DNA of 51,707 nt, filler included, from Jimgerdemannia flammicorona (lineage: Eukaryota), in assembly GCA_003990765.1 (NCBI GenBank). It is 2 parts of 2 records of this genome, joined end to end, with 100 filler letters (N's around TTAATTAATTAA, not from the genome) between each part and the next. Parts side by side here need not be neighbours in the genome. Positions count along the whole stretch, not along the records: positions 25,910 to 51,707 come from RBNJ01000791.1; 1 more part is not named here. One strand, given 5' to 3'. A program made the position numbers and the translations under genes. The notes beneath the pieces are model-generated. The model was not told the origin of the DNA, did not search any database, and was given only the letters and a program-made list of their open reading frames with translations. How positions within the stretch are numbered: the first letter of the stretch is position 1; every line of letters starts with the position of its first letter. Of this stretch, positions 7,643-51,707 are shown in pieces.

Positions 7643-7756
7643 ACTTGGTGCCCATTGGCTGGTGATTCAAGACAAATCTCTCACTTTTAAGCTGAACAAT
7701 GAACAACTGCCACTACCCGAACAACCACACAAACCAAGCCCCAATATCTAGACAAG

Positions 7757-11732: not shown

Positions 11733-11739
11733 ATCAATC

Positions 11740-12933
11740 ATGAATAAGGAGTTCTATTATGGAATTATCACATATCTGGGACAGTGAAAGATGCCCCAAT
11801 ATCTGGAAGAATGGATACAAATGATTATCAACAGAACATGGAAATAATTCAAAACTGACGGAGAAATACTAAAGAAAGAAAAACTACTAGTCATACCAGA
11901 ACATAAGAAGGAGCAAGTGATGAAATCAGTATATGAACTTGGCCATCTAGGAGGAACGAATATATATGATAAGGCAAGAAGAACAATATGGTGGCCAGAG
12001 ATAGAGGAAGATATCAGACAATTCATCAAGACCTGTGACAAATGCCAGAAACAGAAACAAGACCAACAAAATCGAGCCCCAGGATCAGCACATATAGAAC
12101 TAGTACTATTTACCCACATTGCAATAGATGTAATCGGCTCTCTACTCTTGACTTTGACTGGTAACTGATACATCATCATCATCATAGACCTTTTTACAAA
12201 ATAGATAGAAGCAGGACCCCTCATAGAAGTCAATATATAGTTAATCGCTGATTTCTTCTACAAGGAAATCATCTACCAGTTCAAGATCCCAACACAAGTA
12301 ACTACAGATAGAGGAACAGAATTCATGAACCAGTTCTTCGAAGTTCTCTACAAGAAGTACAAGATCCAGCATATCCAGATCACAGTATATCATCCTTAAG
12401 GAAACAGACAAGTAGAAAGGACCAACAAAACTCTCAAGAACATTATTACCAAGATCTGTGATAACTATGAGAACTGGGATCACTATCTGCCAATAGTATT
12501 ATTTGCTCTCCAGGATATCTGATCACAAAGTATCCACTTTACCCCTTGAGAAATGTTATTTAGAGAAGAATGTTCTCAGGGAACCCTATCTTTCAATAGA
12601 GATGCTGTATGGAAACATATGGACATGGAAATATGGAGACTACACCAAATCAGGAAGAAGGCTGAAGATTACATAACCAAGGTACAGATACTACAATAGA
12701 GGAATGTGGAAAAAACCCACAAATTCTTGGAGATTATCAAGATAGGAGACAAAGTTCTAGTATATCAGAATATGATAGAAGCTTCTTGGTCACGAAAACT
12801 GGAGCCCAAGTGGGAAGGACCTTACCTGGTGCAAGATATAAAAGGGACCACCTTTTGGCTATAAAAACCCTCAGGCACAATAATCCCCACTACCATTCAC
12901 CGAAACTGACTCAAGAAATATCATGGCCAGTAA
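11740..12933 (+). pseudogene. A1 integrase (own ATG, different frame from RT-RH; in-frame stops)
   Basis: GHLG..CDKCQ zinc finger, IAIDVIG, TDRGTEF, QVERTN and a GPY/F module (LEPKWEGPY); no chromodomain. Confidence 0.92.
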
Positions 12934-13426
12934 CAAAAGTACTGCAATGGCACTCAAGATCACTAGTGCTGTCCAAAGAGCCATCGAGAGATAATGGTGC
13001 ACCACCAAGCCTCTGACCATAGAGGAGTCCTATGACAGTATCCAAAGCATTGTACAGGCTCATCTCTCTTGGATCTCACACTTCAAGGCCTATCAGCATC
13101 GAAATTAATTCCAAGAGTACTTTAAACTTGGCCAAGTTCTCAACCAAGACCCAGAAATGACCAAAGAAAATTGGATTGCAGAATGCTAGCTCTCCTATTC
13201 TCAGATCACCATTGCTAAGAGAATCCACAAGCTATTCTGAGAGAATGAATCAGCATTAGCCCACCTGCAAGGAGTGACTCTCTCAGACTTCGACTGAGTC
13301 AGGCAACACTATTGGGAAACAGTAATGCAACAAATCACACAATATAAGACCATACAGACCATTGAAGCTTGGGAGTTTGAATAGATGCTTCAAGGATGAG
13401 ATCATCTATTCAGGAGGAAGTTGTGA
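12923..13426 (+). pseudogene. A1 accessory ORF3 (167 codons, 7 in-frame stops), unknown function
   Basis: ATG overlaps the integrase end and the frame runs into the 3' LTR. FQEYFKLGQVL..IAKRIHKLF*..LAHLQGVTLSDF aligns by eye with the family C LTR ORF. Confidence 0.7.
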
Positions 13427-14640: not shown

Positions 14641-17600
14641 AATATATAAGTCAAACTATTAAAATCTACTCAATCTATCTACTCACTCATATCTACTATT
14701 TAGAAATATAACATCTAATTAAGCTCAAGATATGTTCTCTATGATCTGCTATATTAAACTTCTTAAGAAATACAAAGTCAAAGTATTCTGATCAGAAGAG
14801 AATGATCAAGCTTGAGCTTCTCAGATATATAATTGTTGTTAATATGTAGTCAAATGAGGAGGAATAAGAAAATACCCTCAAGAAGATATCTGAATATATG
14901 GGTTTTGACTTAGAAGTGATGATTGCAAAATACAGTAAGATATATATTGAATTATTACTATATATTTATCTCTTTCTTATTTTATTTAATTATCTTTCAT
15001 TCATAAATTATAGTTTGACTAAGCAATATGAGGAGACAGATTTTTGAAGTTGTCAAATCCAATCTTTTCTCCAAATTTACTTCTATTCTTTTAAATATTT
15101 TCAACCTTAATAAGAACTATTAATTCAGATAGTTAATACTTAACTCTGATAAGATGCTTATGGCTTATGAAAAATACAACCCTAAGTTCAACCTTTCAAT
15201 AAATTAAATTGATAGAACATTTGACCTCAATGCTGCTTAATAAGTGAAGTTCAAGAAGTATACAATTAATCAGATCTATACAGGCTCTACTTCAAAGAAA
15301 TAATTTAGATTATATCATAGGTTGAAGAGGTTACAAAGTTTAGTCCAAATATATCAACTAAAGACATTAGATAGAAGAATAGTAGCTTTTGCTATTATCA
15401 TGATAAATTTATATGATATTAATATTTTTCACTTATAGATTATAGAATCTAATTATATTTTATTTATTTTGGATATATATTGCTATCATAAGATCAAAGT
15501 TCAAAAAACTAATTTGGAAGGCTTAGTATGAGAATATTCTTACAATAATCAATAGAGTTGACTTGCAGAAAATATACTAATAATTGGATATAGCCTGGAC
15601 TACTATAATTAAAACATAAGAAAAGTTTAGAGATGGAGAAATATTAGGTCTAAGTGAAGAAGATCATAAGTATATTTTTGCATTATATCTATCAAAATAA
15701 ATTTTATATGAATAATTAACAGCTTATATAGTTTTAAATAATTAGATACTCTCTGAATTCTGAAAAAATATAAATAATACTATATGAATAATTAGATTCC
15801 CTCTAAATTCTAAAAAAAAAATGTAAATAATAATATATAAATAATAATATTATAATTTATATAAATATAAATATATACTTCTAAATGGCGATTTTATATT
15901 TCATTTCTCAGAATAAATATGATATATTAGAAATTAGTAAAAATAAGCTATTCTTTAGCTTAAATTTGCTATTTATTAGTATATTCAGCTGATTTTTATC
16001 AAATTTAAATTTAAATTACTTACTAATATAATCTATGAATATATTTATTTAAAAAGGAGATTCTTTAGTACTATTAATAAATGGTTTATAAGGCTTTATA
16101 TAAAGATCTCTAGAAGTATGATAGATATTATTTGTGCTAACCATATACTATACATATTATAATAGTCAAACTATCAAACTCAATACTCCATCTACTCCAA
16201 ATATACAACTGTTGAATATCCTATTTTGGACTTATATAATGATACTAGTACTGTCATCCATCTTTTTAAAAAGAGTGAGTATTATAAAGATATTACTTTA
16301 TATAATCTGTATTATATAAATCACTCTCAAATCAATCCTTAAATATTAGATAAAACAAAGAATCATATATATAAATATGATTATACTTATTAACTTTGGT
16401 AAAAAGTATATCTGGCAAATTACTATAGTGGACTTTTTAGTTCAAATAGGTATGAATTGAACATATGTACTTTATGTAATCATTATAATATAAATAAAAT
16501 AGTTATATTCCTTTAGATACATGATAGAGATTATTAGTTCAAATGAAATAGAGTTATCAAAATTAAAGTTAATAAGTGAAACTTACCACTAATTTGATGG
16601 GTTTTGTGAAAATCTAATGTTAAGATAATTTGTATTCTATCTAATATATATATATTTAATATATCTCTATTATATCTGCAAAGCTTCATTACTATATAAA
16701 AGATAAAGAAATATAAATAAATAAATACACTATGATATATTAATAATAATATATATTTGACTGATATTAAAAAAAATAAATAAAAATATTTATATATTAT
16801 CTAGCTCCAATTATATCTTTTATTTGACAAAGTATATGAAGAGCTTTTATATCATTACTTGTCAATACTCAAACAAATTCAATATTATTACTTATTTGTA
16901 TCTTATACTTATATAGACTCTATATATATCTACTGACTTTTGTAAATAATAATCCATTTCTTCTCTATATAGTATCACATAGTAGTCGCTGAGTCCTTCA
17001 AATATATCAGATTCTCCAAGGTATATCTCTTAGACTAACCTCAAGTTTGTTATAAGTAAGTTCTTATTAGAGTATCTTCCCAAGGTCTTATAGTTCTCAA
17101 ACTTCTTATCTTTAAACTATCTTGTTATCTTTTAGATTACTTATGTGGAATTAAGGGTAAATAAACTGGAACTGACTTTATTTCAAAGAAAATAAGAGAG
17201 GTATTTATACAAAATATAATTCAATAGTTTGCTAAGTTATAAAGCTAAATATAAATTCTAATAACTAAATAAAATACTGGAATACAGAAAACTATGGTTG
17301 TAAGTATAAGTTTAAGTATCTATATAAATAGTTGTATAAGTTCAGAATATCAGCAGAATTTTAGTGGTATAGAAAAAGAATATCAGAAGAATTTCTGAGT
17401 TATGTAAGATCAGAATGCCAGAAGAATAATAGTTATATAGGAAAAGAATACTAGTAGAATCTGGTATTACTAAGAACTTAGAGCAAAAAGTTCAGGACTA
17501 TAGGGGCTTTATCTTCATTACTATCATTAAGGCTAGAGGTTGGAGATAAGATGTCTTCGAAGGAGATGAGGTCTACAAACAATTTATCTGTTTTATATGT

Positions 17601-19668
17601 GTCATGTATTTTGCATATATTGCACATTTTGCATAGGATGATATTATTGCCAATGATGTCATTATGGGTGATATTATCTCATTTAGTTAGGGGGAAAGCA
17701 AGGAGATCTAGGGCTCTTCAATCTATAAGATTCTCTTTCATAAAATAAGGGACAAATGTGGGGTCTTAGAGAGATCTAACTTAGATGCTGGGGCCTTTAA
17801 ATGCTGAGATCAATCCTTGTAGGAATTGATCAAGATTGTCTTTGAAGATAGGGTTCCAGAACTCTCCTATCTTATTACTGTTGAGGATGATAGTAGACTA
17901 GACTTCTGTGACCACTATGGCCTCCAGTATATTGATACAGCAGACTGATAGTTTCTTGAAGTCTGAGGTTCTAGTATACTCCAAGTTGGGAATTGATCAT
18001 AGTATATACCTGAAGATCTGATGGATCTTCTTGGCTATTCTTATTTTGTATATATCTATGAGAGTAGCATTTTATATTTATTAGTAACTGGCCTGAGAGA
18101 ACTTCCAGTAGAGGAGATTTTCTATTTCATACTCCTGCCACATCTAGAGGTATTTTGTAATAATTTCACAGTCATATTTAGTCTTAGTATATTTTTCACA
18201 TCTTTTAGTCAGTCTTTTCTTATTATTTCTTGAATATTCTACTATGTTCTGTTATCTTCTACTTGCTTAGAAATCTTCTCTCAGTACCCAGATACCACTA
18301 GAACATTCTTGTCTTTCTTTGGTGCCAAGTATCTTATCTTAACTAGTCATAGAATCTTTTGGAACATTGTAGAATAGTATTAGTCAGCTTTGCTGAGAAT
18401 CTATTTCTTGGTATTTCTCTTTCTTTCCAAGATCCTTCCAGATCTTTCTTTCAGATCATGTATAAATATCCTTGTTCTCTGCCTGAATAAAGCTCAGAAT
18501 ATTTTCTCCTAGAAATCTTTTGAGAACACTTGAACCTTTAAGTATCTCTTCAAGCTACTTTAAACCAACTAGAACTTCCAGATTTAGCCACTTCCTCTTA
18601 AAGAAACTAGAACTATTACACTTGGTAGCAGTGGTGTTATTATACCTTGCCTTATTAAGAAACCTCACACAAATTCGGAAACCAGTCACAACTAGTCACA
18701 TAAACCCGAAATGAGCCACGAAGAGACAGTTTATTAGCCAGACCCCTCTGCTACAGAAGAAGTAGAAGGATTGCAGCTTAACATAGAAGATATGATTAAT
18801 GCTAATTCAAGAACTGCAAGCACAACTAAAAATACAAACTATGGGAACATCAAATCCTACTATAGCACTAGTTAGTTTCAAGTCACTCAAGCCAGATACC
18901 TTTGATGGCCATCAAGGAGAACTATCTATAGATGCATGGACCTTTCAGTTGGACCAATACTTCAAACTCACAAGAATGGAAGATAATATGTAAGTCCAAT
19001 TTGCCACCACACTTCTCCAAGGAAATGCAGCTATCTGGTGGCACAATTATATTATGGTTATATCTGTATACTCATATGTATGAATCAGAGATTGGGAAGC
19101 TTTCAAGAGAGCCCTTCACAAGCAGTTCAAGCCTGCTAATGCCACCAAGCTAACCAGGGATAAGCTAGTAAATATCAAGTAACTCAAGTCTATATAAAGC
19201 TACAATGCACAATTCTTGTCAATCCTACTTGAGCTACCAGTAGTATTTAAGGATAAAAAGATAGACTGCTATGTCCGAGGTCTGAAGAAAAACACATAAG
19301 TCAAGATCAAGCTAGAAGAGCCCAAAACTCTTAATGAAGTCATAAGAATTACTAATAAATTTGATATCATTATCTTTGGCAACCACTTTGAACCAGAATG
19401 CCACAAAAAGAACCACTTCAAGAACTGCTACAGAAACCAACCAAGGACAGTTGGCCTGGCACCAATGGACTTAGATACTATGAACAAAAAGAACACCAAG
19501 CTCACCCCTGAAGAAAAGGACTATCTGAAGAAATCTGGAGCTTATTTCTTCTATTGCCAAACAGGACACATTGCAACAAAATGTCCTAGGAAGACTAGCA
19601 AATCCTTACGACCAGTCACTGTGTTGTCCAAGGACACATCTGTCAATCCCACTATCAGTCAACTTGAG

Positions 19669-20079
19669 CTTAAGGTCAAGAAGCTTTATCTGAAGGCCCA
19701 GGTCTCTCAATATCAAACAGAAGGAGCCATTGATCTTGACCTACACTCAGTCAAACAAGTCACTATTTCAGTCAAGGGCTATACTCTGATACCTACTGAA
19801 ATTTCAGTTCAATACCCTGAAGAATATTATACTAGAATTGTACTGTGATCAGGACTCAGTATCAAACATCATTTGGATATAAGTACTAGTATCATTGATC
19901 CAGACTTTTGAGAATAAGTTCAAGTCTTGCTTATCAATCAGAAGGATCAAGACTATACAGTTAAAGAAGAAGACTGAGTTATGCAAATGATTCTGGAAAG
20001 AGCCAGTCAACTCAAGATTACAGAAGTCCAAGAACTCTCTGAAACCAAATGAGATCAAAAGAGTTTCAGTAGTACTGAT
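19669..20079 (+). other. dUTPase domain of family B, between the gag zinc knuckle and protease
   Basis: LKVKKL..GAIDLDL..*SGLS..SIIDPDF*E*V..ED*VMQM..TK*DQKSFSSTD are degenerate versions of AGxDL, RSG, GVIDxDFRG, GDRIAQ and RGxxGFGSTG, in frame with gag and PR. Confidence 0.85.
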
Positions 20080-23000
20080 CAAGCAGCAAGTCTTAGTGAT
20101 AATCAAGCTCAAGCTATACTCATTTTCAAAGGACTAGTTAAAGGAAAAGAAGTTCAAGTACTTATAGATAGTGAAGCTACAAAGAACTTCATTAATCAGA
20201 ATCTCATCAAAAGCCTCAAGATCCTCACCAAGTCTATACTTAAAAATAACAGTATAGTCACTGCAGACAGTACTCTACACTCCATTGAGTCAATTGCCAC
20301 CAAACTGCCCATCAAGATCCAGAAATATTGGGAATGAGTAGACTTTGAAGTTGTATCACTAGGAGATCATGACTTGATCTTAAGAAAACTCTGACTCATG
20401 AAACATAATCCAGATATTGATCAGTATAAGAATGAAGTCACTCTACTTCAAGATGGAGCCAACATTACTATCAAGACAGACAAGACCACAAGTAAGACCC
20501 AGATTGCAACACTGTCAGCTATACAGTCCAAGAAAGTACTCAAGAAGACAATACATGCCTTTATTGTAATGATCCACCCCAAGAAACAAGACAAGAGACT
20601 ATCAGTCAATAAAAGCATCAAGCTATTGCTAGAGGAATTCAAAGATGTCTTTTCAGACAAGCTACCTAGTCTACCACCTATACGAGAAGTTGATTATGAA
20701 ATTGAACTGACCCCCAGAGCTATACCACTTAAGAAACACATATACTGTATGTCATCACTTAAAATTGAAGCAGTTAAGAAGGAACTAGAAGAACTACTTG
20801 CACAAGGAGCCATTCAGCCAAGCAAATCTCCTTATGGCTCATCAGTCTTATTTATCAAGAAGAAGGATGATACTTTGTAAATATATATAGACTATTATAC
20901 ACTCAACAAACTCACTATCAAGAACCACTATCTACTACTCTTGATTGATCAAATATTTGATGCTCTCAAGAATGCCAAGTACTTCACCAAGTTAGACCTC
21001 ATGTCAGGATACCACCAGATCTGAATCAAGCCAGAAGACATTCTCAAGACTGTATTTATAACCCCCTTTGGACTCTACAAATTCCTGGTCTTAGCATTTG
21101 GTCTCACCAATGCACTTGCCACATTCTAGACTCTGATGAACAAGATATTTAAGGACCAACTATTTATTTTCCTATTGATATATCTTGATAACATTCTGAT
21201 CTTTAGTGCAACTAAAGAAGAATACCTTAAACATATTCAAATAGTTCTGGAGATCCTGCAAAAACACAAGCTTTATACCAAGCTCAAGAAGTGTAAATTC
21301 TTCAAGGAACAAGTTGAATACCTTGGCCACATTGTCTCTGTACAAGGAATTCAAGTAGACCCATACAAGATAGAAGTAATTGAAGAATGGCTCATTCTGT
21401 TGAACCTCATAGAACTCCAATCCTTCCTTGGTCTAGCTGGCTATTACCACCACTTTGTCAGAAACTTCTCTGGCATTGCCAAGCCACTGACTAACCTCAT
21501 GAGGAAGGCCCCATACTCAGACCACTATATATCTTATACATACCTGGGACCTCTTCTGTCAACAAGCCTTTCAAGAACTCAAGAACTATCTGACTCATGC
21601 TCTAGTTCTACATAATGCAGATCAAGGCCTAAAATTCATAGTTACTACTGATGTATCAAAATTTGCCATTAGAGCAGTCCTATTACAAGATAATGGCAAA
21701 GAATATCACCTTATTGCTTTTGAGTCCCACAAGCTGGCCCTAGCTGAACAAAAGCTAGCTACTTATAAGAAGGAACTGCTAGCAATAATACATGTACTAG
21801 ATTACTGGCAATGCTATCTAGAAGGTGTTGAGTTTAATGTCATTACTGATCATCAATCTCTCAAGTATATTAACACCCAACCTACTCTATTATGTCTATA
21901 AGCTAAGTAGAGCCTCAAGCTTCAAACCTTCAATCTGACAATCATCTATAAGTCTGGCAAGACACTTATAATACCAGATGCCTTATCAAGATACCCAGAC
22001 CTCATCACAATTATGCAAGTCACCTTGGCATTAGAATTTCTAGACCAAATCAGGCAAGCTTATAAAGAAGATACAGTTGCCACTAGAGTTTTTTCAAATG
22101 AACTCAAGGATATATATACTATTGAGAACAATCTGATCTATCATCAAGACAAAGTCTACCTACCTAAAAACATAAACCTATGCTATAAGGTTTTGCAAGA
22201 ACACTATGATTCCCCTCTTGCTGGTCACCTGGGAATTGAAAAGACCATCAAGAACATCCAATGATGCTATTATTGGTCAAATATAATTAAGGAAATCAAG
22301 AACTATGTTGCTAGCTATGATCTATATCAGCACAATAAGTCTACCAACCAAGCATCTGCCAGTTTGCTATAACTACTGCCAATTTCTACCAAGAAGTTCG
22401 AGTAAGTCACTATGGACTTTATAACTCAACTACTATAAACTCAAGCTGGTGCTGATACTATCATCATATTTATTGACTACCTGACCAAGACTATGATTGC
22501 TGAACCAACCACTACCAATGCTACTGCACTCAAGATTGCAAGAATCTTTTTCAAGTCTATCTTCTATCACTATGGTCTACTATGAGTAATTATTGGCAAT
22601 CATGACCCCAAGTTCACCAGCTACTTCTGGAAAACCCTCTTCAAGACTCTGGGAACTTAATTGGCTATGTCTACTGCCTTTCACCCACAAACTGATGAAC
22701 AAACTGAGTACATGAACAGAACTCTAGAACAAATGCTTAGAAACTATGTTTCTTATAAGCAAGATGATTGGGACATCTATTTGACTTATATAGAGTTTGT
22801 ATATAACAATGCTGTCCAATTATCTACTGGTCTTTCTCCTTTTCAGTTACTCCATGATCAAGATCCCAAGACTCCTGCAAGTCTATTCCCTTTCAAGAAA
22901 ACCAGTCAAATATAAGTCTCAACTGCTAAGAACCTTACAGACAAAATGGGCAAACTACTCAAGATTGCTACCATGAATCTTCAGAAGGCTTAATAGCATC

Positions 23001-23311
23001 AAGTCAAGTATACTGACAAGAAATGCTGTGATGTCATCTATACTATTGGAGATCAAGTCTTACTATCTACTGAGAACCTCAAGATATAATCTCAAGTCAA
23101 CCACTCTTTGAATAAGTTCCAACCCAAGTATATTAAATCTTTCGAGATCACTGAACAAGTCTCTGCATCTTTCTATCACCTCAAGCTACCTGAAATCATG
23201 AGAGTATACCCAGCCTTTTATATATCACACCTCAAGACCTGAAACCAGTCACCACCCTACTCTGGTCAAATTTCTAAGCCTTCTGCCCCTGTAATTATTA
23301 AAGATTATATT

Positions 23312-23460
23312 GAGTATAAAGCTGAGAAAATTCTTGACAAATAAATCTGTTACTACCATTCTGAATATCTAGTCAAGTGGATGGATTACTCTGAATATAA
23401 TGCTACCTAGAAACCACTGGTTAATCTTAAGAACTCTCAAGATCTAGTTCAAGACTTTGA
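23312..23460 (+). other. Chromodomain at the integrase C-terminus of B1
   Basis: EYKAEKILDK..EYLVKWMDYSEYNAT*KPLVNL. Confidence 0.9.
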
Positions 23461-24771
23461 GGTAAAATACATTGCCTAATCTCTATAGTGACTTTCTTAG
23501 ATTATTGATGACCTATAGCAATGACCAGTGTCTTATACATTGGAAGTTTACTTTGGAACTCCAGAATCAGTAGAACATTTAATAAACAAAAAGTCTATTG
23601 AAATGAAGCTACTAGCTGGATTTAAATTCCTCCCAGTTGGTTAGTCTAGTAATAGGCCCTCTGTCCTATATAAGGATAATCAATTCTCACTAATACACCG
23701 ATTCAAGTTTGAGAAATTTTGGTTAAGTATATCTAGTCTTGTGTTACCTAAAAATTCAATAAGGACATTGGTTCTTAAAGAGGGAGAGATGTGTAATAAT
23801 TTCACAGTTATATTTAGTCTTAGTATATTTTTTACATCTTTTAGTCAGTCTTCTTTTGTTATTTCTTGAATATTCTACTATGTTCCATCATCTTCTACTT
23901 GCTTAGAAACCTTCTCTTGGTGCCCAGACACTACTAGAACATTCTTGTCTTTCCTTAGCACTAAGTATCTTGTCTTAGCTAGTTATGGAACCTTTTGGAA
24001 CATTGTAAATATTCTTATTCTCTACCTGAATAAAGCTCAGAATATTTTCTCTCAGAAATCCTTCAAGAACACTTGAACCTTTAAGTATCTCTTTGAACTA
24101 CTTTAGGCTAACTAGAACTTCCAGATTTAGCTACTTCCTCTTAAAGAAACTAGAACTGTTATATATTTAGTAGTAATAGTGATCCTTGTTTTCATTTTAT
24201 GGTGGTAGAGAATATAATTATAGGGGTCACCAGTATCCAGGTTAAGACTAAGAGTCCTTCTTGTACAGGTTCTCATAGCTCTTCTGATGTCTTAGAATAT
24301 TCTTTCCTAAACTATAGGGCCTTAGTAATTCCTGGACCTTGAGGTTTGATGAGCAATAGGCATTTATTTATAGTAAGTCATTAGAACTATTTCAGTAAGC
24401 TTATTTAGGCTATTGCTACTGTGGTTTCTTGATCTTTCTTTTATATTCCTCAAGATATCTGTCTTGTGGTCACAATGACTCATAGTTGGTCATAATTACT
24501 CATCTTATAGCCTGGATGAGTCATGCTATATGATCTTCTTATACTCTAATCTGATGGCTTATAAGGAAAGGCTGTCTTCTATGCTGATGTCATCATTCTG
24601 AGGTCACTATTATATCTTTCTCCTGAATAAGGATCTTCTCTTAAATGTTCTTATTCATTGGTCCAATCTAAAAAATTTGCTAATCTCATAATCTCTAACA
24701 GGAGATTGAAAAGTGATATTTATAGGCTGATATCTTCTCTATATATTTTGGCATGATGGTGAAGGGTTGCT

Positions 24772-25809: not shown

Positions 25810-25909
25810 NNNNNNNNNNNNNNNNNNNNNNNNNNNNNNNNNNNNNNNNNNNNTTAATTAATTAANNNNNNNNNNNNNNNNNNNNNNNNNNNNNNNNNNN
25901 NNNNNNNNN
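25810..25909. other. Artificial assembly linker: N44-TTAATTAATTAA-N44
   Basis: 100-bp spacer carrying a six-frame stop cassette at 25854-25865. Confidence 0.97.
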
Positions 25910-25926: not shown

Positions 25927-26632
25927 CCTGCAGTTTGTATTTTCTGCTGTTCTAGTTGTGCTTGAAGTTCTTGGATTTGATAGGCCATAGCATTGATCAT
26001 ATCTTCTATGTTGAGCTGTAATCCTTCTACTTCTTTTGTAGCAGAGGGGTCTGGCTGGTAGACTGACTCTTTGTGGCTCATTTCAGATTCATATGACTAG
26101 TTGTGACTGGTTTCTGAATTCATGTGAGGTTTCTTAATAAGGTAAGGTATAATGACACTGCTGCTACCAAGTATAACAGTTCTAGTTTCTTTAAGAGGAA
26201 GTGGCTAAATCTGGAAGTTCTAGTTGGTCTAAAGTATTGAAGAGATACTTAAAGATTCAAGTATTCTTGAAGGATTTCCATGAGAAAATATTCTGAGCTT
26301 TATTCAGGCAGAGAACAAGGATATTTATACATAATCTGAAAGAAAGATCCAGAAGAATCTTGGAAGAAAGAGAAATACCAAGAAATAGGTTCTCAGCAAA
26401 GCTGACAAATACAATTCTACAATGTTCCAAAAGGTTCCATGACTAGCTAAGATAAGATACTTGGTACCAAGAAAAGATAAGAATGTTCTAGTAGTGTCTG
26501 GGCACCTAGAGAAGGTTTCTAAGCAAGTAGAAGGTGACAGAACATAGTAGAATGTTCAAGAAATGACAAGAAAAGACTAACTAAAAGATGTGAAAATGTA
26601 CTAAGACTAAATATAACTGTGAAATTGTTATA
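25927..26632 (-). mobile_element. Family B copy B2: 5' LTR (26632-26172), PBS and gag start, truncated at the gap
   Basis: Reverse-complement match to 18156-18845; MSHKESVYQPDPSATKEVEGLQLNIEDM. Confidence 0.93.
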
Positions 26633-28632
26633 GTGCATAGGAACAGACTCAAGAAGTACTACAAACCTATATAAGAGAAGCAAAACATAATGATCACCTG
26701 TAAGGTTCTAGTCTGAAAATCATAACAGTATATCCTATAACCAGCAGACAATCTGTTTGGATCATTCTTTAAGGGATATGGTATCAGCAACTACTTATTT
26801 ATGAGACTTTTGAAGCCAGAAGAGTTCAAACCATCAACTGATTGGTCAAGATCAGAATCAGGCCCTTGCTCTATATGAAGATAGCAACTCTTCACCATCA
26901 TACCAAAATACATAGGGAAGACATTAGCCCATAAATACCACTTTTTAACCCCCTGCCAGAGGTTATGGGATTAGCAAATTTTTCAGGACTAGATCAATGA
27001 ATAAGGATATTCAAGAAGATCCTTATTCAGAAGGAAGATATAATGGTGATCTTAGAATAATGACATCAGTACAGAAGACAGCCTTTCCTTACAAGTCATC
27101 AGATCAGAGCACAAGAAGATTATATGGCATAACTTACCCAGGCTACAAGATGAGCAATGATGACTAACTATGAGTCATTGGGACTACAAAACAGATATCT
27201 CAAGGAATATAAAAGAAGGATCAAGGAACCACAGTAGCAGTAACTCAACAAGACCCACTAATTCTGAAATAGCTCAAAGACTTACCATAAACAAAATGTC
27301 TGCTGCTCACCAAACCTCAAGGTTAAGAAACCACCAAGGTCTCTCAGTCTAGAAAAGAATGTTTCAAGATATCTGAAGAGCTATAAGGACCTGCACCACA
27401 AGGACTCCTAGTGTCAATCTAGGTACTGGTGACCCTTATCATTATATTCTCTATCACTATAAGATGGAAACAAGAATCACCATTGCTACCAAATATCTCC
27501 AGATGTAGCAAAAATACAAAATAGGAAACATTATCTGTCAGGAATTCCCTCAAGCCAGCCCTCAAGAGTTACAAGATACCACTTCTATAGATATATATAA
27601 AATAAGAATAGCCAAAAAGATTTATCAGATCTTCAGGTATACACTATAGTCGATCTCCAACTTAGAGTATACCAGAGTCTCAGACTTCAGGGATCTGTCA
27701 GTCCACTGTATCAATATACTAGAAGCCATTGTGGCTACAGAAGCCCCATCCACTATTACTCTCAATAGTGATGAGATAAAAGAGTTCTGGTATCCTATTC
27801 TCCAGGACAACTCAGATCAATTTCTACAAGGATTGATCTCAGTATTCCAAGACCCAAGTATCTAGATTAGACCTCTCCAAGACCTCACATTTGTCTCTTA
27901 TTTTGTAAAAGATGACCTTATAGACTGGAGAGCCTCTGATCTCCTTGCTCTACCTATTACCAAATGTGATGACATCATTGGTGATGATGTCATCCTGCAC
28001 AACATATGCAAAATATACAATGAAGTATGTGAAATAGATGAAACATTCACAGACCTCATCTTCTTTGAGGATAGTGATGAGAGTGAAGCCCCCATAGTCC
28101 TGAACTTTCTGCTCTGAGTTCTTAGTGACACTGAATTCTGCTAGTATCCTTTTTTTGTATACATAACAGTTAATCCTTCTACTAGCATTCTGATCCTGTG
28201 TGACTCTGAATTCTTCTAGCATCCTTTTCCTATACAATCAAAATTCTACCAGTACTTTGAACTTATACAATTATCTATATCAATACTGAAATCTGTACCA
28301 ATAACTATAGTTTTTTATGTTCCAGTATTTTATTTAATTATTGGAATTTATATTTAGCTTTATATCTTAGCAATCATTGAATTATATTATATATAAATAT
28401 CCCTCTTATTTTCTTCAAAATAAAGTCAGTTCCTCTCAGTATAATATATACAATTCCTTGTAGGCAATCTAAAGAGATAATAAGACAGTTTAAAGATAAG
28501 AAGTTTGAGGACTATAAGACCTTGGGAAGGCACTCTAATAAGAACTTACTTATAACAAACTTGAGTAGTCTAAGAAATACACCTTGAAGAGAATTTGACA
28601 TATTTGAAGGACTCAGCAACCACTATATGATA
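26633..28632 (+). mobile_element. Family C 3' end (copy C2): integrase tail, PPT and ~1594-bp LTR (27039-28632)
   Basis: VHRNRLKKYY integrase end at 26633; PPT agaaggaaga, then tataatggtga (tgtaatagtga in copy C3 at 51053); similarity to C1 ends at ..atgata (28632). Confidence 0.88.
27296..28117 (+). pseudogene. ORF inside the family C LTR (~273 aa, 5 in-frame stops, no frameshift), homologous to A ORF3
   Basis: Four of the five stops are sense codons in copy C3. Indels versus C1 in the 3' third are 15, 9, 3 and 30 nt. tataaaag lies ~85 nt upstream in all three copies. Confidence 0.8.
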
Positions 28633-29485
28633 GTATATATATTTTGACACCCTGTCAATCCTGAGCATAGTTGTAATATACTTACTATACTCTGTCTTTC
28701 AATTATATTTTAGAATCTTATAGAATGAGAATATATCTATGGTAATCCCATCTGGACTCTTTTTTTTTTTTTATTTTATTTTTTTATTTTTATTATGCAT
28801 TACCAATTTTTGTACTACATTTATAAATATGTACAAACCTTGCATATCATCCTGTAATATAATCTTATATAGTTTGAAATATATTTCCACTTCTCTTACT
28901 CTCTCCCTTGAATCTCTCTCAGGATCCTAATATTTCATCAATACTTATATCTTATATTCAGTTTTTCTTTTCCTTTTTTTGTCTAGAAAGAGCATTGAAA
29001 ACTTTATTATGGTCAAGTGATATAGAGGTTCTCTTTATTCAAAGTATATCATCTCTATCTATATAAATATATTAGGTTTGATTATATTATTATTAACTAG
29101 ATTATATAATTTAGATTCTATAATAGAATAAATCTTTCAATCTGATAATTAGCTTGAAGTTATTATATTTATCTAAACTAAGACCCATAAAGGACATATA
29201 TTATAATTATCTCTTCATTTCCAAAAATGTCTAGGTTATTTATATATTGTGACGTATGGTATGAAATAGAAACAGGAAATAGACATTTGATCGTAGTACC
29301 TAAATCCGATTTCCAATTTAGTATAGTCTTTTACTGCGGACACTGCATCTAAAACATTATCAGTGAAACTCTTGTTACTTTCACGAATTTCAGATAGGAT
29401 TTCACATGAGATTCTACCTGAGAATTTCACATGAAAAGACTTAATACTTAGCCGCATATTTAGTAGCAGAATTAGCACACAAATC

Positions 29486-29719
29486 TGTATAAATAACTCA
29501 GTATTTTAGAGTGAATAAACCTCAGTCAGAACGAGTCAGATCGAAATAGTTCAAAGCAAAGAGATAGCAAAGGAACTAGTAAGTCTGTGGGCAGATACAC
29601 TTCAAACTCACCCACCCTTCCCCTGCCACTTCAAGAGACTCTTCGAGAGTCAGAACAGTCAAGTTTTCAAGATACAGAAATCCAACATACTTTCAAGAGT
29701 AAGCATCCGCTATGTTACA
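29486..29719 (+). repeat. 5'-truncated family A LTR fragment
   Basis: Matches the 3' half of the A1 LTR and ends ctatgttaca; no PBS follows. Confidence 0.9.
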
Positions 29720-30097
29720 ATATAATAATCATAAACTGATGATAATACTAATTTTTAATTATCTATAGTATCATGAAGAGAGGTTGATTTTATTGAAAAT
29801 ATATAAGTTATATATTTTATATATTACTAATGAATGATATAAAACTGATGAAATGGTATAATCATATTGAGTTGTCAACTCAACACTCTTGCCCAATGAG
29901 ATATATAACTCAAAAAAAAGAGACTGTAATTTGGTAGTAAAAAAATAAAAAACAATACTATATATGCAAAAACTGGAACTGTATATAACTCAGAATTACT
30001 ATTATAAAATCCTATATCTAAGGAATTTTTTGTAGGTTAAAAAGTGTTCTAAAATATCCAAAATATCTGACATATCTACAAAATACAATATATGTAC

Positions 30098-33000
30098 CTC
30101 CTTTGCCCCCTTGTCCCCAATCGAATTTCCAGACCAGTCCAATGAGGTGAGAGGAAGATGGAGGGAGTGAATCGGAACAGAAAAGACAGAATTACACCCT
30201 TGGAGATCGATTTGTCGCAAAAATGGTTGAGTAAAGAGTAGAGCTATGTCAAGAGTTTTCAAGTTGCTATTATGAGTCAGGATTACTTCCATCAACTTTG
30301 TGTTATCCAGTTGGAGACACTGGAGGACTGGACAGTTGGGCAGATCCAACCTTTCAAGTAGAGGGGTCTGCAGCTGAATTTCTTGTCGATTGGCACACTC
30401 TTTCATTACCAGACGTTTGAGGGATGGAAAGTAAGCTGGAAAAACCTGAGATGACGTGACATCAAGAGACGTGAGAGATTTGATCCAGGGAGGGTTTTCG
30501 ACATGGCCTACGAAGGTAAGTTGTGGGCAACAACTCAAGTTCAAATACTCCAGGAAATCACCGCAGGCATTGTGAAGCGCTTTAAACCCTGAATTGTTGA
30601 AGGCTTGAGCGCCGCGTAAATCGACACTGGTGATGTGGTGCTTGCGGCCTTGAAAAGCTAAGGTGTTGAAATGTTCTTTTGTCAGATAGCGGCTATTGAC
30701 AAACTCCAGACTCGTGTGTGGAGTCTTGTCATCAAAGAGGACGTTGAGAATATTTTTCTCCTCCTCCGGAGTATGGATGGTCATATCCCACTTTTTGTCC
30801 AGCACCCACCCTCCTTCTAAACGCCTTATAAGAGCCTCGTTTTCGGCTTTAATGTTTTGACGCAAGTCCTGAAATCTATCCAAGGCTTCATGAGGACCAG
30901 TACAAAGCAATTTCCGCCTTTCATGATCTGCAATAAGTGCATATGCATCAATCTCAAGGATATTCAGTATCTCTTTGGTATTGATTGAAGAGATGGCATC
31001 CCTTGTATTACGTCGTTGATAGAGGCTTTTAGTCACGCTACAAAACCTGCCCTTCAATGTTAGCCCTTGATCAAGAACTTTGCCATAGCTCTTGGCAACA
31101 TAAGGCTCAAGCTTGCTAAGAAGTTCGATGTGGGTGAGGTGTGGATTTTGCAAAACTTCCCTTTGCAAACGATGAGCCTTGCGATAAAGATTTTCCATAG
31201 AGAGTAAAGGTAGTGGAAGGCGCAATATTGTTCCTTTATGAAACAGTTGTTGACGTTGATCTGCAGTGCAAAGCTTTTGATAGGCCATTTCAACGGTTTC
31301 CAGCTCTTTCATCCAGGCGGTTAAAAATTTATCGATTTCCAATGTGTGAATCTGCTCTCTTACAACTGAGGGGAGTGGATCGCGCATCTGTGATAGACAA
31401 AATACCAAAGTTTTGGCTTGTAACTGAGGGATTACCTTAGAGGGAGCACCAACACCTTTGCCTTGATAAAGGACGCCAGGCAGAAAAGCATGATCGTTGT
31501 CGATGGGAATGCAACGCCGCCTGTCAGCACTGAGGATAAAGTTGTCTTCCTTGCTATCTTCAGGATTGAGCAGCATGGAAGCGACAATCAGTCGGCTTGT
31601 GAACACTGGATCCAGGCGGGTAAAGATGTCGTCGTTTTCCCAGACTGTATGAAGAACATTTCCCCTAACGGCTTGGTTTACGAGGACAGGATACGGTCCT
31701 TTCTTGGGGTCATGAAACATAAAGAGCTCGCAAAAAGGTATGCCCTGGAGGCTCCAGCCACGTAAAAAGCGAGTGACGGCATATTCATAGCCTGGAAGTT
31801 CTGGATAAGCTTTGAAGAAGAGTTCTGGGGTATCTTGCGGATAAAAAGGTAACAGTGCTGCGTCCTGTGAGTGTTGTATCACCTTGGAATTGTCCTTTTT
31901 TATTCAATATGCGCTTGCTGAGGTTCGAGTTGAGGTGGCGCTCCCCCGGAAATGCGCCTTTTACGGTCAAAAATGGTTCGTCCTCTGGAGCAGGGCCACG
32001 CGGCAAGGCTTTAGCGATGGTGAGGCGCCATGCGAGTTCAGGGTTGTGTGGCAGGAAGGGGTCAAACATCCGGGTCGAAACCGCCGCGATGTCGGCGCCA
32101 TATTGGACTGGATGGTTGCGCATGTGATGCTGGGCGTCTTCCCAAAGGTTTTCCGCGAGCTCGGCATTGTTGAGGTTGAAAAATCCCTCACTTTGTAAGA
32201 GGTAGAGGTCTTGGAATAGACGGCCAAAGGCAAAAACATTTGTGGAAAATTGCTGCGCATAATTCTCCAAAACATGATCAACCATGGGAAACTTGTCAAT
32301 TGTGAGAGAGGGCAAAAATATTTCTTTGAATCGAGCAGGGTCTTCGTTCTGCACTTGAGAGGTGGCCGATTCCAGCAACTGCTTCACTGTAGTGCCATCG
32401 GAGAGATTCCAACCGTCATTGAGGAGAGATACAATCTTCAAATCACCATGATAGAGATGGTCGAGCGCCTCCGTAGGAGATGGCAATTTCTTTCGGAGTT
32501 CGGTGTAATAGTGGCCGAGCAACGGATCGATCGCGTTGAAGAGATCTTGTGGAGTGGTAACTGGGTTTGCCAACACTTGCTTGAGCTTCTCCAGAATCCC
32601 GCGCAGTGTCAAGGGCATTTTGAAGGGTAATCCTAGATCATTCCAGAGGTCATCCATCTCGTTTGCCGCCAGAGGAGGGTGGCCATGAATTAAGGTGGAA
32701 AGAATAGTCTTTTTGAGAGTTGAGTATTCTTGATTCTTGACTATCAAGGTATTGGCCCAGGCCAGGAGGACAGCTTCCGGCACTAGGTTTTTGAAGGCAA
32801 TACGAGTTTTTTGAGGAATGGCGTGATCCATCAACGGTAAGAGGTAGAGAAGAGATTTGTTGTTGACACGGCCGTGTTGAATACTAGGAGCGAACACTTC
32901 CTCGTTATCAATGCTGACCAGACTACTTGTGGAGGATTCATAGATGAAGTTGTCAGGTTTGCCGTCGGATGGTTGTGTCAGTAGGGCACCAACGACTTGC

Positions 33001-33971
33001 CGGGCATATAGATCAACATCAAGAGAGGCCAAGATGTTCTTCCCTTCGTCCTCAATTTGCAAGATCTCTTCAGCCGTCTGCCCTGGAATCGCTTTAGAAG
33101 CTAGCAGTATACAAGGTTCTGTGTTTTCTGCATCGAAAGCCGGAACGAGGACTACCAGGGTGGTGGCGGGCATGGGAATGTCTAATAGCTGATAGAGGCT
33201 GTGGGCGAGAGTGTTGTTGCCCGGCCGTATAGGGGGAAAGCCATTTGCTTTAAAATATATATTTGCGGTATGTCGATCGTCTTTGGGAAGGAAGCTGACG
33301 GGATGATTGCCGGTATGGACTGGCCCATGGCATATGTGATCGGCAATTTTTTGAGTCACCCTGTAAAATTTCCAGAGCGAAAAACCCTCCCCCATCATCA
33401 GGGTTTTGTGAGCAAGCAGCTCACGCAAAAAATGATTCCGGTCGTACTTTTGGTCTTTGCCTGCGGCGCTAAACTCCTGCATTGCATGGATGACACGCCG
33501 TTTGTAGTTTTCGTAAAAGGTTTTGGTCTGCTCCAGAGCCTGGATCTCGGCGTAGTTCTTAAGGGCTTTTTGGAAATCGGCGATGGTGGCAATATACTGA
33601 TTCAACTTGTGGAACTCCTGGCCTTCTCCAATCGTTGCATTTTTCATGGATTCATCAATCTAGCTATGTCTTTTCGGCATGAGAGCCTCAGGGGGTATAG
33701 GACCGTCCTTGAAAAGGAAATTCCACAGACCCAATAACTCGCCGTCCATTCGAATATGATTGCAGAGGGTTTCGAAGAGGGCATAGTGGACCTGACGGGG
33801 CACATCGGGCTCGGCTTGGGTGACTTGGAGGATTTTGTCGGTCAAAGAGTCGGGGTTCGGCGCAGCGGACTCGGGGGATAAAAACCCTAAAAAGCGGGAC
33901 TGATCTTCAGGCGTAAGGTGCCGTTGGGCACCGGGCTCTCGATCCTGAGGAATTCGCTCTTCACGATTCAT
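30098..33971 (-). pseudogene. Intronless ~1290-codon protein with two tandem PI3/4-kinase/HipA-like domains and C-terminal LRRs; in-frame TAG at 33660-33662 and +1 frameshift at 31843-31847
   Basis: Kinase 1: IYFK..LLTQPSDGKPDNFI..LVSIDNE. Kinase 2: LFFK..LLNPEDSKEDNFI..IPIDND. LRRs: LEYLNLSCC, LERLDLPNC, LTSLDWSGNSIGDKGAKE. The three provided ORFs join across one stop and one extra T. Confidence 0.82.
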
Positions 33972-36900
33972 TGTGTGGTGTGGTCTGGCGTGACGATGAC
34001 TGAAAATGAGATGTCCAGTTTCCCTTCGAACATCCTTTTATTGGAAGGCTGAGCACGAAATATTTCAAATTCGTAACTGCCAAATTAAGGACCAAAGGAA
34101 TCGGGGACTCAAGGTCACTGGTCAGATCGCTTACAAAACATTTGAGCAACCTTGGGATGCTGCGACAAACTGAATATATCCATTGCTGTGAACTCAATTT
34201 TGTGGGGCAAAGATACAAGTCATGTTGTTCACATCGATGTTCAATTCCTTGGAGGCTATTTTGTGCCAAATATCTTACACGGCAAACCGACCTTCAGCAC
34301 GTTGTATAAATTGGCGGGGTATCCTTCCAAGCCAAGGATTTGAGCTCGGTGGTATGTGTCACATTTGTCTACACGCCCTACACTGAAGCGTAGTTTCACC
34401 GGGCACGTGCCCTTACTACATTCACGTCTAAGCCTCCTGGTCTCGCTATGCAGCTTTGGAGTAGGCGTTTGCTTCAACCTGAACCATCTTACTCGTGGCT
34501 CCATTTGACAACCCCACCCTCAAGCGCGCCATACGCAGCACCATTGAGATCAACCTCTGTTCCTAGGATAGAGGTATGTTCATCCCGTTTTTCGACGATC
34601 GAAGATAAAGGACGGATTGGAGAAGTATGTGAGTCTTAATTCCGATACTCTGAACGATTTATTCGCCATCATGTAACCACGTTTCCTTGGCAGGCGCCAC
34701 TCAACTTTCGCGAACCGTGGATAAAGGGTTGTGAGCGGTAGGTAGGTGAAGCCTTTTATTATTATGGGGGGGTTATTGGAGTGGAACGGAGAAGAAGAGT
34801 GTAATGAATGGGTAGAGGTGGATCGAACCGGCCCGGCGACTTGCACATCTCGCAAAACCATACACCCTTTTTGTCCTCTCCATTCCCACGACTCTACATA
34901 AGCGCAGGATGATTCTGTCCCAATCAATGCTGTCCTTTCTACTTTCTATCATCCCGAAGTTCTATCATCCCGAAGCTTAACGTCCTCCTTCACCGTCCGT
35001 GACTAGAACTACAAGCAAACTCGCCTCTTCTAGTGTTAATGTCGTATCCCGGTCGGCGCCCATATATTATGCAACAACTGCGGTTGGCTTGACGCGCACG
35101 GGCGAGTCAACACAGATAGGAGGGAGCGAGACGAGCAGGGCAGATATTGTAACACCAGCAGTCGCGTGTGGTTAAAGGGGCCACGTTTGTGAAGGTGGCG
35201 TTGTGGTTAGAGAAAGACGATTTTAGGCAAGAATATTATTTCATTTTATGTTACTTCTTTATTAATAAAAATAGATAACCTCCGATCATCAGCTGCACCC
35301 GTATTCGCAACTGTACACCCGAACCTGATTTGTCTTGCCGTTCCGCCACTTGCTGAACGCAATAAATGTCGGTTGTCTGACAAAATCCCTTTCCCTTTAG
35401 TTTTTCTCACCAGACCGTTCTGCATAATCTTAACAGACACTGCTCTGCATTCACGTCGTTGTTTAGGATATGGTTTACTGGATATTCTGCTAGTGCGTGT
35501 AACGGCCCGGTCTGGAGTGAAACGGTGAATAAATCCAACGGAGTTGAAAACGGTTTGGATTTGACGGTAGTGCATATTGCCGTTGCTGGTATTGCTACCC
35601 AATGGATCGCTAGTGGGTGGGGGTCAAATTCATCAGTTGTATACAAGAAGATAGTTGGGGTAACATCAATATTCTTATGATAAATAATGGAAAGAAAGCA
35701 TAGAGAGTGAGTCTTTGCGAATTTGCGTCTACGGATGATGCAGTGAAAATCATGCTTGAACGTTTGAGGTGGGATGAAAATCAGAATTTGCAAACGATGA
35801 AAGCAACGACATTACAAGACACTATAGCAATGGTTACAATACTGATGCAACTGAAAATATTCCACAAGTATATATCCTGATTCCTGATTACAGGGACGTC
35901 GGTCTCCCAGGATGTTGCAACTCTTTTTCAGATGGGTGAGATGCTTTACGGATTGAGAGGACGAATTTTGGTCTGTATCTTATGCATGTGGCGGTGGTCT
36001 CTGGAAGCTAACAGAGAATTTGAGTTCCAAATAAAATTCAATTTTTTTTTTAAAAAAAAAAAAACCTCTTCAGTGAGTTCAAATATCGTGATATTTGCCG
36101 ACATTTTAATTCGAAATTCTGGGCCCAAATAGCAAGTTGAGATATAATATTCATGGTGAAGATACCGTGCAAGCGAGACGATGAACGTACGGGCAGTTCT
36201 TCGGTAAGGGAGGTTGTGGGTGGAGGAATCGGGTGGTTGCAGGGTATTTGTAGAATTTTTTTTTTTTTTTTGCTTGTATGTATATAATATCCTGCATGGA
36301 TATGTATGATAATTACGTATCCTTTCGATATACAGAACCTTGTACCACCGGAAGAGTGACACGTCAGATAGGCTTACTTATTTTTACCACAATTTTCGCA
36401 TTACTCGAACTGTTCGCAAAAATGCGGGCTCACAGTTCCTGCGAGGAATGGCAATAGACACATTGTAATTGGCGAGGGTGATGGCACCAAACCAAGCGCG
36501 ACCTTGATGACTCTTATCGTTGCAGAATGTGCCATCGCATGATGAAAGACATGGAAGTCATCGAATGAGGAAGACATCCAAACTGTGGGTGGGGCACTGG
36601 GGGGGGGGGGCTACTGTTGTAATAGGGATGGCTGTAAGAGAAGGAATGGGATGGTAAGGCTAATTGATCGATGCGGACATGTATCGATTCGGGGAACCGA
36701 TTCGATCGAGCGAGCAAGTGTCTTTTCAAATTCTCCTTGTCAAAAAGTGCTCCAAGCATGACAGGATGGGATAATATTTGTCTCATCTTGATCTTATCTC
36801 ATTCCAGTCTTGATCGAGAACGTGATAATATCATCCCAGTTTTGGGTGAGACTGAGGTGCCACCATTTCTGTCATTAGGAAATGTATCAAGCATTTCAAA

Positions 36901-47039: not shown

Positions 47040-47182
47040 TTAAATATATTATAGATATATTTATATCTATTTTCTGATCATATAGCATATACTCTATATT
47101 CTGTCTCATTCTTAATAATTGCTTTAAATTCTTTAAATTTGTCTAAGACTTCACTTTTTACTGATAGAAAATAAATATATAT
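47040..47182 (-). pseudogene. Ty1/copia integrase core relic
   Basis: IYFLSVKSEVLDKFKEFKAIIKNETEYRVYAI*SENRYKY resembles the copia pattern VYFLKxKSEVxxxFKxFKAxVENETGxxIxxLRSDNGGEY. Confidence 0.8.
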
Positions 47183-51052: not shown

Positions 51053-51707
51053 TGTAATAGTGACCCCAGAATAATGACATCAGCACATGAGACAGCCTTT
51101 CCTTGCAAGCCACCAGACCGGAGCACAAGAAGATCATATGGCATATGAGATGAGCAATGATGACCAACTGTGAGTCATTGTGACCACAGTACAAGCATCC
51201 TGAAGAATATAAAAGAAGGATCAAGGAACCACAGTAGCAGCAACCAACAAGACCCATCAATCCCAAAATAGCTCAAAGACTTACCACAAATAAAATACCT
51301 GCTGCCCACCAAACTTCAAGGTCAAGGAACTACTAAGGTATCTCAGTTGAAGAAAGGATGTTCCAAGACATCAGAAGAGCCATGAGGACCCACTCAAGAA
51401 GGACTCCTAGTGTTGATATGGGTACTGCAGATCTCTATCATTATATTCTCTACTGCTGTGAAATGGAAACAAGGATCACCATTGCTACTGAATGCCTCCA
51501 AATGTGGCAGGAGTATGAAATAGGAAACCTCCTCTGCCAGGAGTTCCCACAGGCCAGCCCTCAAGAGCTACAAGATACCACTCCCATAGATATATGTAAG
51601 ACAAGAATGGCTAAGAAGATCTATCAGATCTTCAGACATGTACCATGGTTGATTCCCAACTTGGAGTATGTTAGAGTCTCAGACTTCAGAGACCTATCAT
51701 CCTACTG
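51053..51707 (+). mobile_element. Family C LTR (copy C3) inserted into the RT of A3; runs off the window
   Basis: Starts tgtaatagtgac exactly where A-family RT similarity stops; matches 27039-27705; stop-free frame at 51337-51707. Confidence 0.92.

What the first reader, a model, noticed from the sequence alone, without database searches (positions are those of the whole stretch)
27039..28632. A 1.6-kb LTR that contains its own gene and TATA-like box
Seen: the LTR start is fixed by a PPT in C1 and C2 and by a clean TG insertion boundary at 51053. An 822-nt frame (27296-28117) lies wholly inside it, with tataaaag ~85 nt upstream in all three copies. The C1-C2 indels in the 3' third are all multiples of 3 (15, 9, 3, 30 nt). 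One stop position (~27863) is shared by C1 and C2. Known analogy: LTR-encoded ORFs such as MMTV sag. Inference: every solo LTR of this family would be a self-contained expression cassette for the accessory protein.
Basis: partly seen in the sequence, partly recalled or inferred. Interest (0 to 1): 0.75.

Follow-up and report, generated by a model that had tools for sequence, protein, structure and literature searches.

The report
Gene nested inside fungal retrotransposon LTR
The end repeats of a very abundant jumping-gene family in this fungus each carry a complete, evolutionarily conserved protein gene with its own predicted start and stop signals, an arrangement known from a mouse retrovirus; the copy in this window is dead and the protein's job is only inferred.

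Summary
Confirmed and extended. 27039-28632 is the 3' LTR of a dUTPase-carrying Ty3/gypsy family in a fungus. Both LTRs of paired elements are about 1.55 kb and hold the 273-codon frame. The window copy is dead (5 stops), but 30 of 47 frames from less decayed copies are open. In copies picked by non-coding DNA, dN/dS is 0.51 (95% 0.41-0.64; other frames 1.15-1.30), and 12 of 12 shared indels keep frame against 1 of 8 outside. A second TATA plus AATAAA lies after the gene (28392, 28419), so the gene sits in U3 between its own TATA and the LTR poly(A) signal; this is predicted, no RNA was available. Homologues occur in three other families, one inside a 2.35-kb LTR and two between pol and the PPT, with similarities that disagree with pol, so the gene moved. 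No Pfam, PDB or significant fold match; weak hints of a helix-turn-helix core with an acidic tail suggest a trans-acting regulator (about 45%). The shared stop at 27863 is a mutation hotspot, not ancestry. None of 7 solo LTRs examined had an open frame. This scan noted the same gene family before on other DNA of this genome.

The parts
27039..28632 (+). C1: 3' LTR of the dUTPase-carrying Ty3/gypsy family (called family I here), heavily decayed by C-to-T / G-to-A changes
27012..27038 (+). purine-rich tract (PPT) directly before the LTR
   Evidence: same tract before 3' LTRs of paired elements
26631..27038 (+). remnant of the element's 3' internal region; upstream it gives way to a reverse-strand piece of another family (25950-26630) beside an assembly gap
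27061..27068 (+). TGACATCA, CRE-like site (motif name recalled) upstream of the first TATA
27171..27177 (+). TGAGTCA, AP-1/Gcn4-like site (motif name recalled); kept in 22 of 30 control loci
27207..27215 (+). TATA 1, predicted promoter of the LTR gene
27296..28117 (+). accessory gene, 273 codons, 5 internal stops in this copy; helical core about codons 47-149, acidic variable tail
27970..27992 (+). two CRE-like octamers inside the coding tail (decayed here; intact TGACGTCA in 14 and 15 of 30 control loci)
28392..28399 (+). TATA 2 (TATAAATA), predicted promoter of the genomic RNA at the U3/R border
   Evidence: same TATA-AATAAA unit in the LTRs of families II, III, A and D
28419..28424 (+). AATAAA, predicted poly(A) signal; present in 30 of 30 control loci
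24164..24614 (-). C2, 5' piece of a second family I 3' LTR (PPT before it, TATA 1 near 24440, first 67 codons)
16973..18155 (-). C2, 3' piece; split from the 5' piece by an unrelated LTR element inserted at 18156-24163
51053..51707 (+). C3, third family I LTR (no PPT before it, so 5' or solo), cut by the window end; 137 codons with 1 stop
12923..13384 (+). distant 153-codon homologue in the window's family A element (7176-13855), between pol and the PPT, outside its 0.45-kb LTR; 5 stops in this copy

Best explanation
A real accessory gene of fungal Ty3/gypsy elements lies wholly in U3. Each LTR has two predicted transcription units: TATA 1 drives a roughly 1.15-kb mRNA over the gene to the LTR's AATAAA, and TATA 2 at the U3/R border drives the genomic RNA. 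Because the PPT lies upstream of TATA 1, reverse transcription copies the gene into both LTRs and leaves it in solo LTRs. In two other families the PPT lies after the gene, which is then internal. The product is most likely a soluble nuclear regulator that binds DNA through a helical, HTH-like core and acts in trans on the element's promoters through its acidic tail, in the manner of foamy-virus Tas. Shown: LTR anatomy, selection on the frame, distribution over four families (about 0.9). Inferred from motifs: the two transcription units (about 0.7). Inferred from weak fold hints: the regulator function (about 0.45).
For: Paired 1.55-1.6 kb LTRs, 84-87% alike, on 5 contigs; 4-bp TSDs, PPT and PBS; PBS matches the 3' end of a host tRNA-Thr(TGT) at 17 of 17 bases. 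30 of 47 full frames open. dN/dS 0.51 (0.41-0.64) in 25 of 30 loci picked by non-coding DNA, 0.38 without CpG-touching codons; frames +2 and +3 give 1.15 and 1.30, the LTR after the stop 1.15. Shared indels in frame 12 of 12 inside, 1 of 8 outside. Family II keeps a TATAAATA 71-73 nt before its internal copy in 18 of 20 loci, family III a TATTTAAG block at a fixed distance in 11 of 15. Model core at pLDDT 70-93; no hydrophobic segment, basic N-terminus, acidic C-terminus in three families. Weak HTH hints: a DUF3102 phage protein at rank 3, E 0.32; sigma-factor and TetR chains at Z 4.2-4.9, rmsd 2-3.4, 45-55 residues; Atlas rows at 0.91.
Against: No transcript data. No fold or family match is significant; the best Z (6.0) is a photosystem subunit, and the tool warns that such Z values are common for helical bundles. 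The core-only model is poor (pLDDT 60). The family A version has no acidic tail and its start overlaps the pol stop, with no TATA seen, so neither tail nor own promoter is universal. Most in-frame indels lie in a repetitive tail where slippage favours multiples of 3. Shared transversions among C1-like copies show no codon-position bias (5, 5, 7), though counts are small. None of 7 solo LTRs was open.
Confidence: 0.45

Rival explanations
1. Counter-defence protein: it shields element copies from host cytosine methylation or RNA silencing. Exchange between families would spread a shared shield against one host system.
For: Repeats here are almost free of CpG (o/e near 0 against about 0.9 in host genes) and paired LTRs differ by 166-209 transitions against 9-19 transversions, so host pressure is strong. 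The gene has moved between distant families.
Against: No enzyme or silencing-suppressor domain was found. Carrier families are decayed like others.
Confidence: 0.2
2. RNA-level helper like C. elegans CERV or Rev: binds genomic RNA for export, translation or packaging.
For: Arg-rich N-terminus (net +8 in the first 40 residues of P0001); soluble helical protein; precedent in a Ty3/gypsy element (PMC10309623, abstract read). One Atlas lead is a phage translation repressor family (0.91).
Against: No similarity to CERV or Rev was detected in Pfam or PDB searches. The Arg-rich end is weak in P0007 and absent from family A.
Confidence: 0.2
3. The gene is real but its place in the LTR is a by-product: it is made only from the 3' end of genomic or spliced RNA, TATA 1 is idle, and 5' and solo copies are silent passengers.
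For: Family A's copy overlaps the pol stop, which suggests coupled translation. MMTV sag is made largely from spliced RNAs and env promoters (PMC12789967, passages read). LTR copies are homogenised by reverse transcription whether used or not.
Against: TATA 1 is nearly invariant and at a fixed distance in families I and II, and T positions never vary in a sample dominated by C-to-T change. CRE-like and AP-1-like sites flank it (2.72 octamers per LTR against 0.14 in shuffles).
Confidence: 0.12
4. Not a gene: a chance frame or a captured fragment drifting neutrally.
For: The window copy and all 30 C1-like copies carry 4-12 stops; no named homologue.
Against: Purifying selection specific to this frame, in-frame indels, open copies, and protein-level conservation at 28-46% between families with no DNA similarity over most of the LTR.
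Confidence: 0.03

Closest known systems
MMTV sag (PMC12789967, passages read)
   Same: Whole ORF inside U3; extra promoters in U3 upstream of the main promoter at the U3/R border.
   Different: Sag is a type II membrane protein of a retrovirus acting on host immunity; this protein has no membrane segment, no similarity, and is in envelope-less fungal retrotransposons.
Foamy-virus Tas/Bel1 with internal promoter (PMC12789967, passages read)
   Same: Second promoter near the 3' end drives an accessory gene; proposed trans-activation of both promoters. Family II has this internal layout.
   Different: No sequence or fold match found; trans-activation is untested here; in families I and III promoter and gene are inside the LTR.
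Additional ORFs of plant and fungal LTR retrotransposons, e.g. Grande gene23, Boty (PMC7264820, parts 1-2 of 3 read)
   Same: Conserved extra ORF of unknown function at the 3' end; Grande's has its own promoter and is nuclear.
   Different: The review places them in the internal region, sense or antisense; none is described inside the LTR.
ORF3 types shared between bdelloid retroelements (PMC5408684, abstract read)
   Same: One extra ORF shared by unrelated lineages, several of which carry dUTPase.
   Different: Those are recognisable enzymes or env-like proteins in ORF3 position.
dUTPase-carrying fungal Ty3/gypsy elements of Postia, Phanerochaete and Tuber (PMC2864245, passages read)
   Same: dUTPase in pol, here between protease-like region and RT in family I.
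   Different: The passages read do not describe an LTR-borne gene; the figure legend lists an unspecified additional ORF that I could not see, nor the .doc supplements.
Rice Retrosat2 ORF0 (PMC3485330, passages read)
   Same: Long LTRs and an orphan ORF under selection.
   Different: ORF0 is described as lying upstream of gag-pol; the passages do not place it in the LTR.

Membership tests
Ty3/gypsy LTR retrotransposon (Metaviridae) | Two direct LTRs with TG...CA ends and a short TSD | tested here: met
   4-bp TSD exact in 5 of 7 solo LTRs and 2 of 3 paired elements with both flanks
Ty3/gypsy LTR retrotransposon (Metaviridae) | PBS complementary to a host tRNA 3' end; PPT before the 3' LTR | tested here: met
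   17 of 17 bases to tRNA-Thr(TGT), 1 of 38 tRNA loci read; PPT
Ty3/gypsy LTR retrotransposon (Metaviridae) | pol order RT, RNase H, integrase | tested here: met
   5 of 6 family I loci tested show dUTPase-RT-RH-INT; the sixth held no pol
Chromovirus | Chromodomain at the end of integrase | tested here: not met
   Family I pol ends without one. Family II shows a chromodomain-like stretch (motif recalled, not scanned against Pfam)
MMTV sag superantigens | ORF wholly in U3 | tested here: met
   Frame lies before TATA 2 and AATAAA; U3/R border inferred from motifs
MMTV sag superantigens | Type II transmembrane protein with sag homology | tested here: not met
   Highest 19-residue hydropathy 0.64-1.07; no Pfam or PDB hit
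env-like ORF3 | Signal peptide and transmembrane segment | tested here: not met
   (hydropathy only; no dedicated predictor)
Foamy-virus Tas | Sequence homology to Tas | tested here: not met
   No Pfam family at E up to 10 for P0001
Foamy-virus Tas | Binds and activates LTR and internal promoters | not testable with these tools
   needs reporter and binding assays
HTH DNA-binding domains (DUF3102-like, sigma region, TetR) | Three-helix HTH fold | tested here: inconclusive
   E 0.32 and 1.8 to one DUF3102 protein; Z 4.2-4.9 to sigma and TetR chains, tied with unrelated bundles

The most novel reading that the evidence does not exclude
An undescribed trans-acting regulator, possibly descended from a phage-type HTH protein, is passed between at least four distant retrotransposon families in one fungal genome. 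In two families a PPT shift has put it, with its promoter, inside the LTR, so that thousands of 5', 3' and solo LTRs are dispersed stand-alone genes able to switch on or protect other elements across family lines.
Probability: 0.25. Interest if true: 0.82.

Novelty: new variant of a known kind. Interest (0 to 1): 0.6.

Why it matters
LTRs of retrotransposons are treated as non-coding, and solo LTRs as spent remnants. Here the LTR holds a selected gene with predicted promoter and poly(A) signal, a layout I found in print only for retroviruses. The same gene in four families, inside or outside the LTR depending on where the PPT lies, is a natural experiment on how LTR borders move and how accessory genes are traded between elements. 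If the protein regulates elements in trans, it could help explain how these families reached high copy number under strong host mutagenesis.

Tried and rejected
No RNA holder listed for the LTR, so no reads were laid; this is no evidence on expression. Scans for related loci found nothing confirmed in metagenome contigs (243 pattern matches) or viral contigs, and tblastn of the short form found no phage record. Pfam, PHROGs and PDB sequences gave no significant family. Atlas searches gave no hit at 0.9 for the whole protein and unnamed clusters at 0.92-0.94 for the core. Fold searches had no match at E 0.001 or Z 8. Self-priming was rejected: the longest PBS complement in the LTR is 7 nt. An internal second copy of the gene in family I was not found. 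A homodimer prediction was not run, so oligomeric state is open. The protein-selected dN/dS (0.24-0.34) was set aside as biased in favour of the control sample. Five truncated rows were dropped before the indel count in the C1-like sample, where shared ORF indels were 6 in frame and 2 out of frame; those 2 are a +2 and a -5 twelve bases apart. Literature: 8 searches showed no paper on a protein gene inside the LTR of a fungal retrotransposon; subscription journals are not covered. PMC12543289 passages did not address CpG decay.

Full report
Setting. The window is a repeat-rich stretch of a 231-Mb assembly that encodes fungal-type chitin synthases (5 matches over the cut-off). CpG is nearly absent from repeats and near expectation in host genes. 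The two LTRs of single elements differ by 166-209 transitions and 9-19 transversions (4 pairs), so copies decay by C-to-T change after insertion.

The LTR. 27039-28632 finds 45 matches among 40 scored of 4259 candidates, most end to end at 79-87%. Five contigs hold two copies in direct orientation, 84-87% alike, 3.1-6.1 kb apart. Flanks show TG...CA ends, a purine tract before 3' copies, a PBS after 5' copies and 4-bp target duplications. The PBS matches a host tRNA-Thr(TGT) at 17 of 17 bases. The interior is gag-like, dUTPase, RT, RNase H, integrase, without chromodomain. C1 and C2 are 3' LTRs; C2 is split by another element at 18156-24163; C3 has no PPT. Complete LTRs measure 1488-1616 nt (55 copies).

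The frame. C1 has 5 internal stops and all 30 C1-like loci have 4-12, at a small set of recurrent codons. The stop at 27863 is TAG in C1 and TAA in C2 and occurs in 13 of 31 rows, so it is a hotspot. A search with an intact metagenome homologue (P0001, 62% identical) scored 142 of 6972 candidates; 19 of the 30 loci returned have no stop, and 30 of 47 full frames are open. These copies are about 50% GC and sit in 5', 3' and solo LTRs with the start 240-242 nt from the TG.

Selection. Protein-selected copies give dN/dS 0.24-0.34, which is biased. I therefore picked 30 loci by the non-coding 3' end of the LTR; 25 cover the frame. There dN/dS is 0.32-0.52 for kappa 1-10, and 0.51 (bootstrap 0.41-0.64) at kappa 8, or 0.38 without CpG-touching codons; frames +2 and +3 give 1.15 and 1.30 and the LTR after the stop 1.15. 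Indels shared by two or more copies are multiples of 3 in 12 of 12 cases in the frame and 1 of 8 outside (Fisher p about 1e-4, worked by hand); single-copy indels are mixed (5 of 11). Most in-frame indels lie in a repetitive tail. Against this, shared transversions among the decayed C1-like copies show no codon-position bias, with small counts.

Two promoters, one poly(A) signal. TATA 1 (27207) is kept in 30 of 32 rows. A second TATAAATA at 28392 with AATAAA at 28419 is kept in 28 and 30 of 30 control loci. The same unit, 26-29 nt apart, occurs in LTRs that lack the gene, so I read it as the U3/R border. The gene is then in U3, between TATA 1 and the poly(A) signal. CRE-like octamers occur 2.72 times per LTR against 0.14 in shuffles; two lie inside the coding tail; an AP-1-like site precedes TATA 1 (motif names recalled). 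All of this is inference from motifs; no RNA run was listed.

Four families, two positions. A profile search of 1.84 billion proteins found only 5 clusters, all unnamed. Two of them led to further high-copy families in this genome. Family III has a 2350-nt LTR pair (92% alike) with the gene starting 214 nt inside. Family II, chromovirus-like, has a 796-nt LTR, and its gene lies between pol and the PPT, with the stop touching the PPT and a TATAAATA 71-73 nt upstream in 18 of 20 loci. The window's family A carries a 153-codon form at 12923-13384 between pol and PPT (HMM E 3.8e-7; hhalign probability 85, E 6e-6; 150 scored of 2755 candidates; open in 11 of 12 loci fetched for that reason). Integrase identity is 60-65% for I-A, 35-46% for I-III and 25-31% for I-II. 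Core identity of the accessory protein runs the other way: 12-17% for I-A, 28-31% for I-III, 41-46% for I-II. II and III also share a 229-nt, 77% identical non-coding block upstream of the gene. The simplest reading is exchange of the 3' module between lineages plus shifts of the PPT; no tree test was run, and unequal rates are not excluded.

The protein. AlphaFold2 on 15 sequences gives mean pLDDT 62, with a helical core (residues 47-149) at 70-93 and a disordered acidic tail. There is no hydrophobic segment. No library gave a significant match. The weak rows lean towards helix-turn-helix proteins: a DUF3102 phage protein (E 0.32, rank 3), sigma-factor and TetR chains (Z 4.2-4.9), and an Atlas cluster with 15% HTH_3 (0.91). 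I put a DNA-binding trans-regulator at 0.45, counter-defence at 0.2 and an RNA-level helper at 0.2.

Comparison. MMTV holds sag wholly in U3 and has extra U3 promoters; foamy viruses drive tas from an internal promoter (PMC12789967, passages). Reviews place extra ORFs of LTR retrotransposons in the internal region (PMC7264820, parts 1-2 of 3), and ORF sharing between lineages is known in rotifers (PMC5408684, abstract). dUTPase in fungal gypsy elements is known (PMC2864245, passages; supplements not seen). Eight searches showed no fungal retrotransposon with a gene in its LTR. Earlier notes of this scan report the same family on other pieces of this genome; they are unchecked and are not counted as support.

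Verdict. It is a new variant of a known kind, an accessory gene in U3, with an undescribed protein family and a mobile position. Expression and function are unshown. Interest 0.6.

Noticed in passing
window 30002-34037 (-): Host-like gene region with two long overlapping frames (624 and 633 codons); the second ends in leucine-rich repeats (Pfam). Each frame has a DNF/IDN stretch that recalls PI4K/HipA-type kinases (recalled, no Pfam hit).
   Followed up: no
window 7176-13855 (+): Family A element has the same PBS as family I and a near-identical PPT, a 4-bp TSD, dUTPase, and a TATA-AATAAA block 90% identical over 60 nt to family III.
   Followed up: partly
window 18156-24163 (+): Unrelated LTR element inserted into the C2 gene near codon 65, with a 5-bp TSD; its PBS resembles that of family II; no accessory-gene hit.
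   Followed up: partly
window 45854-48389: Large imperfect inverted repeat (76%) formed by two family A-like pieces lying back to back.
   Followed up: no
window 25811-25909: Assembly gap of N with a ttaattaattaa filler in the middle, followed by a run of A; C1's upstream context is cut here.
   Followed up: no
window 27970-27992; control loci L129-L158: Two CRE-like octamers fall in the coding tail and read as DDVI-type motifs: possible dual use as enhancer and coding sequence.
   Followed up: partly
L194 237-2586, L180: Family III LTR is followed by a G-rich, non-TGG stretch instead of a tRNA-type PBS, and has 195-nt tandem repeats near its TATA-AATAAA unit.
   Followed up: no
L197, L194, L031: dUTPase occurs in families I, II, III, A and B at 22-66% identity and in different places in the polyprotein.
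   Followed up: partly
L254: ARAGORN called a tRNA with a TCA anticodon (labelled SeC) in this fungal genome.
   Followed up: no
window 29480-29720 (+): Isolated piece of a family A LTR 3' half just downstream of C1.
   Followed up: no
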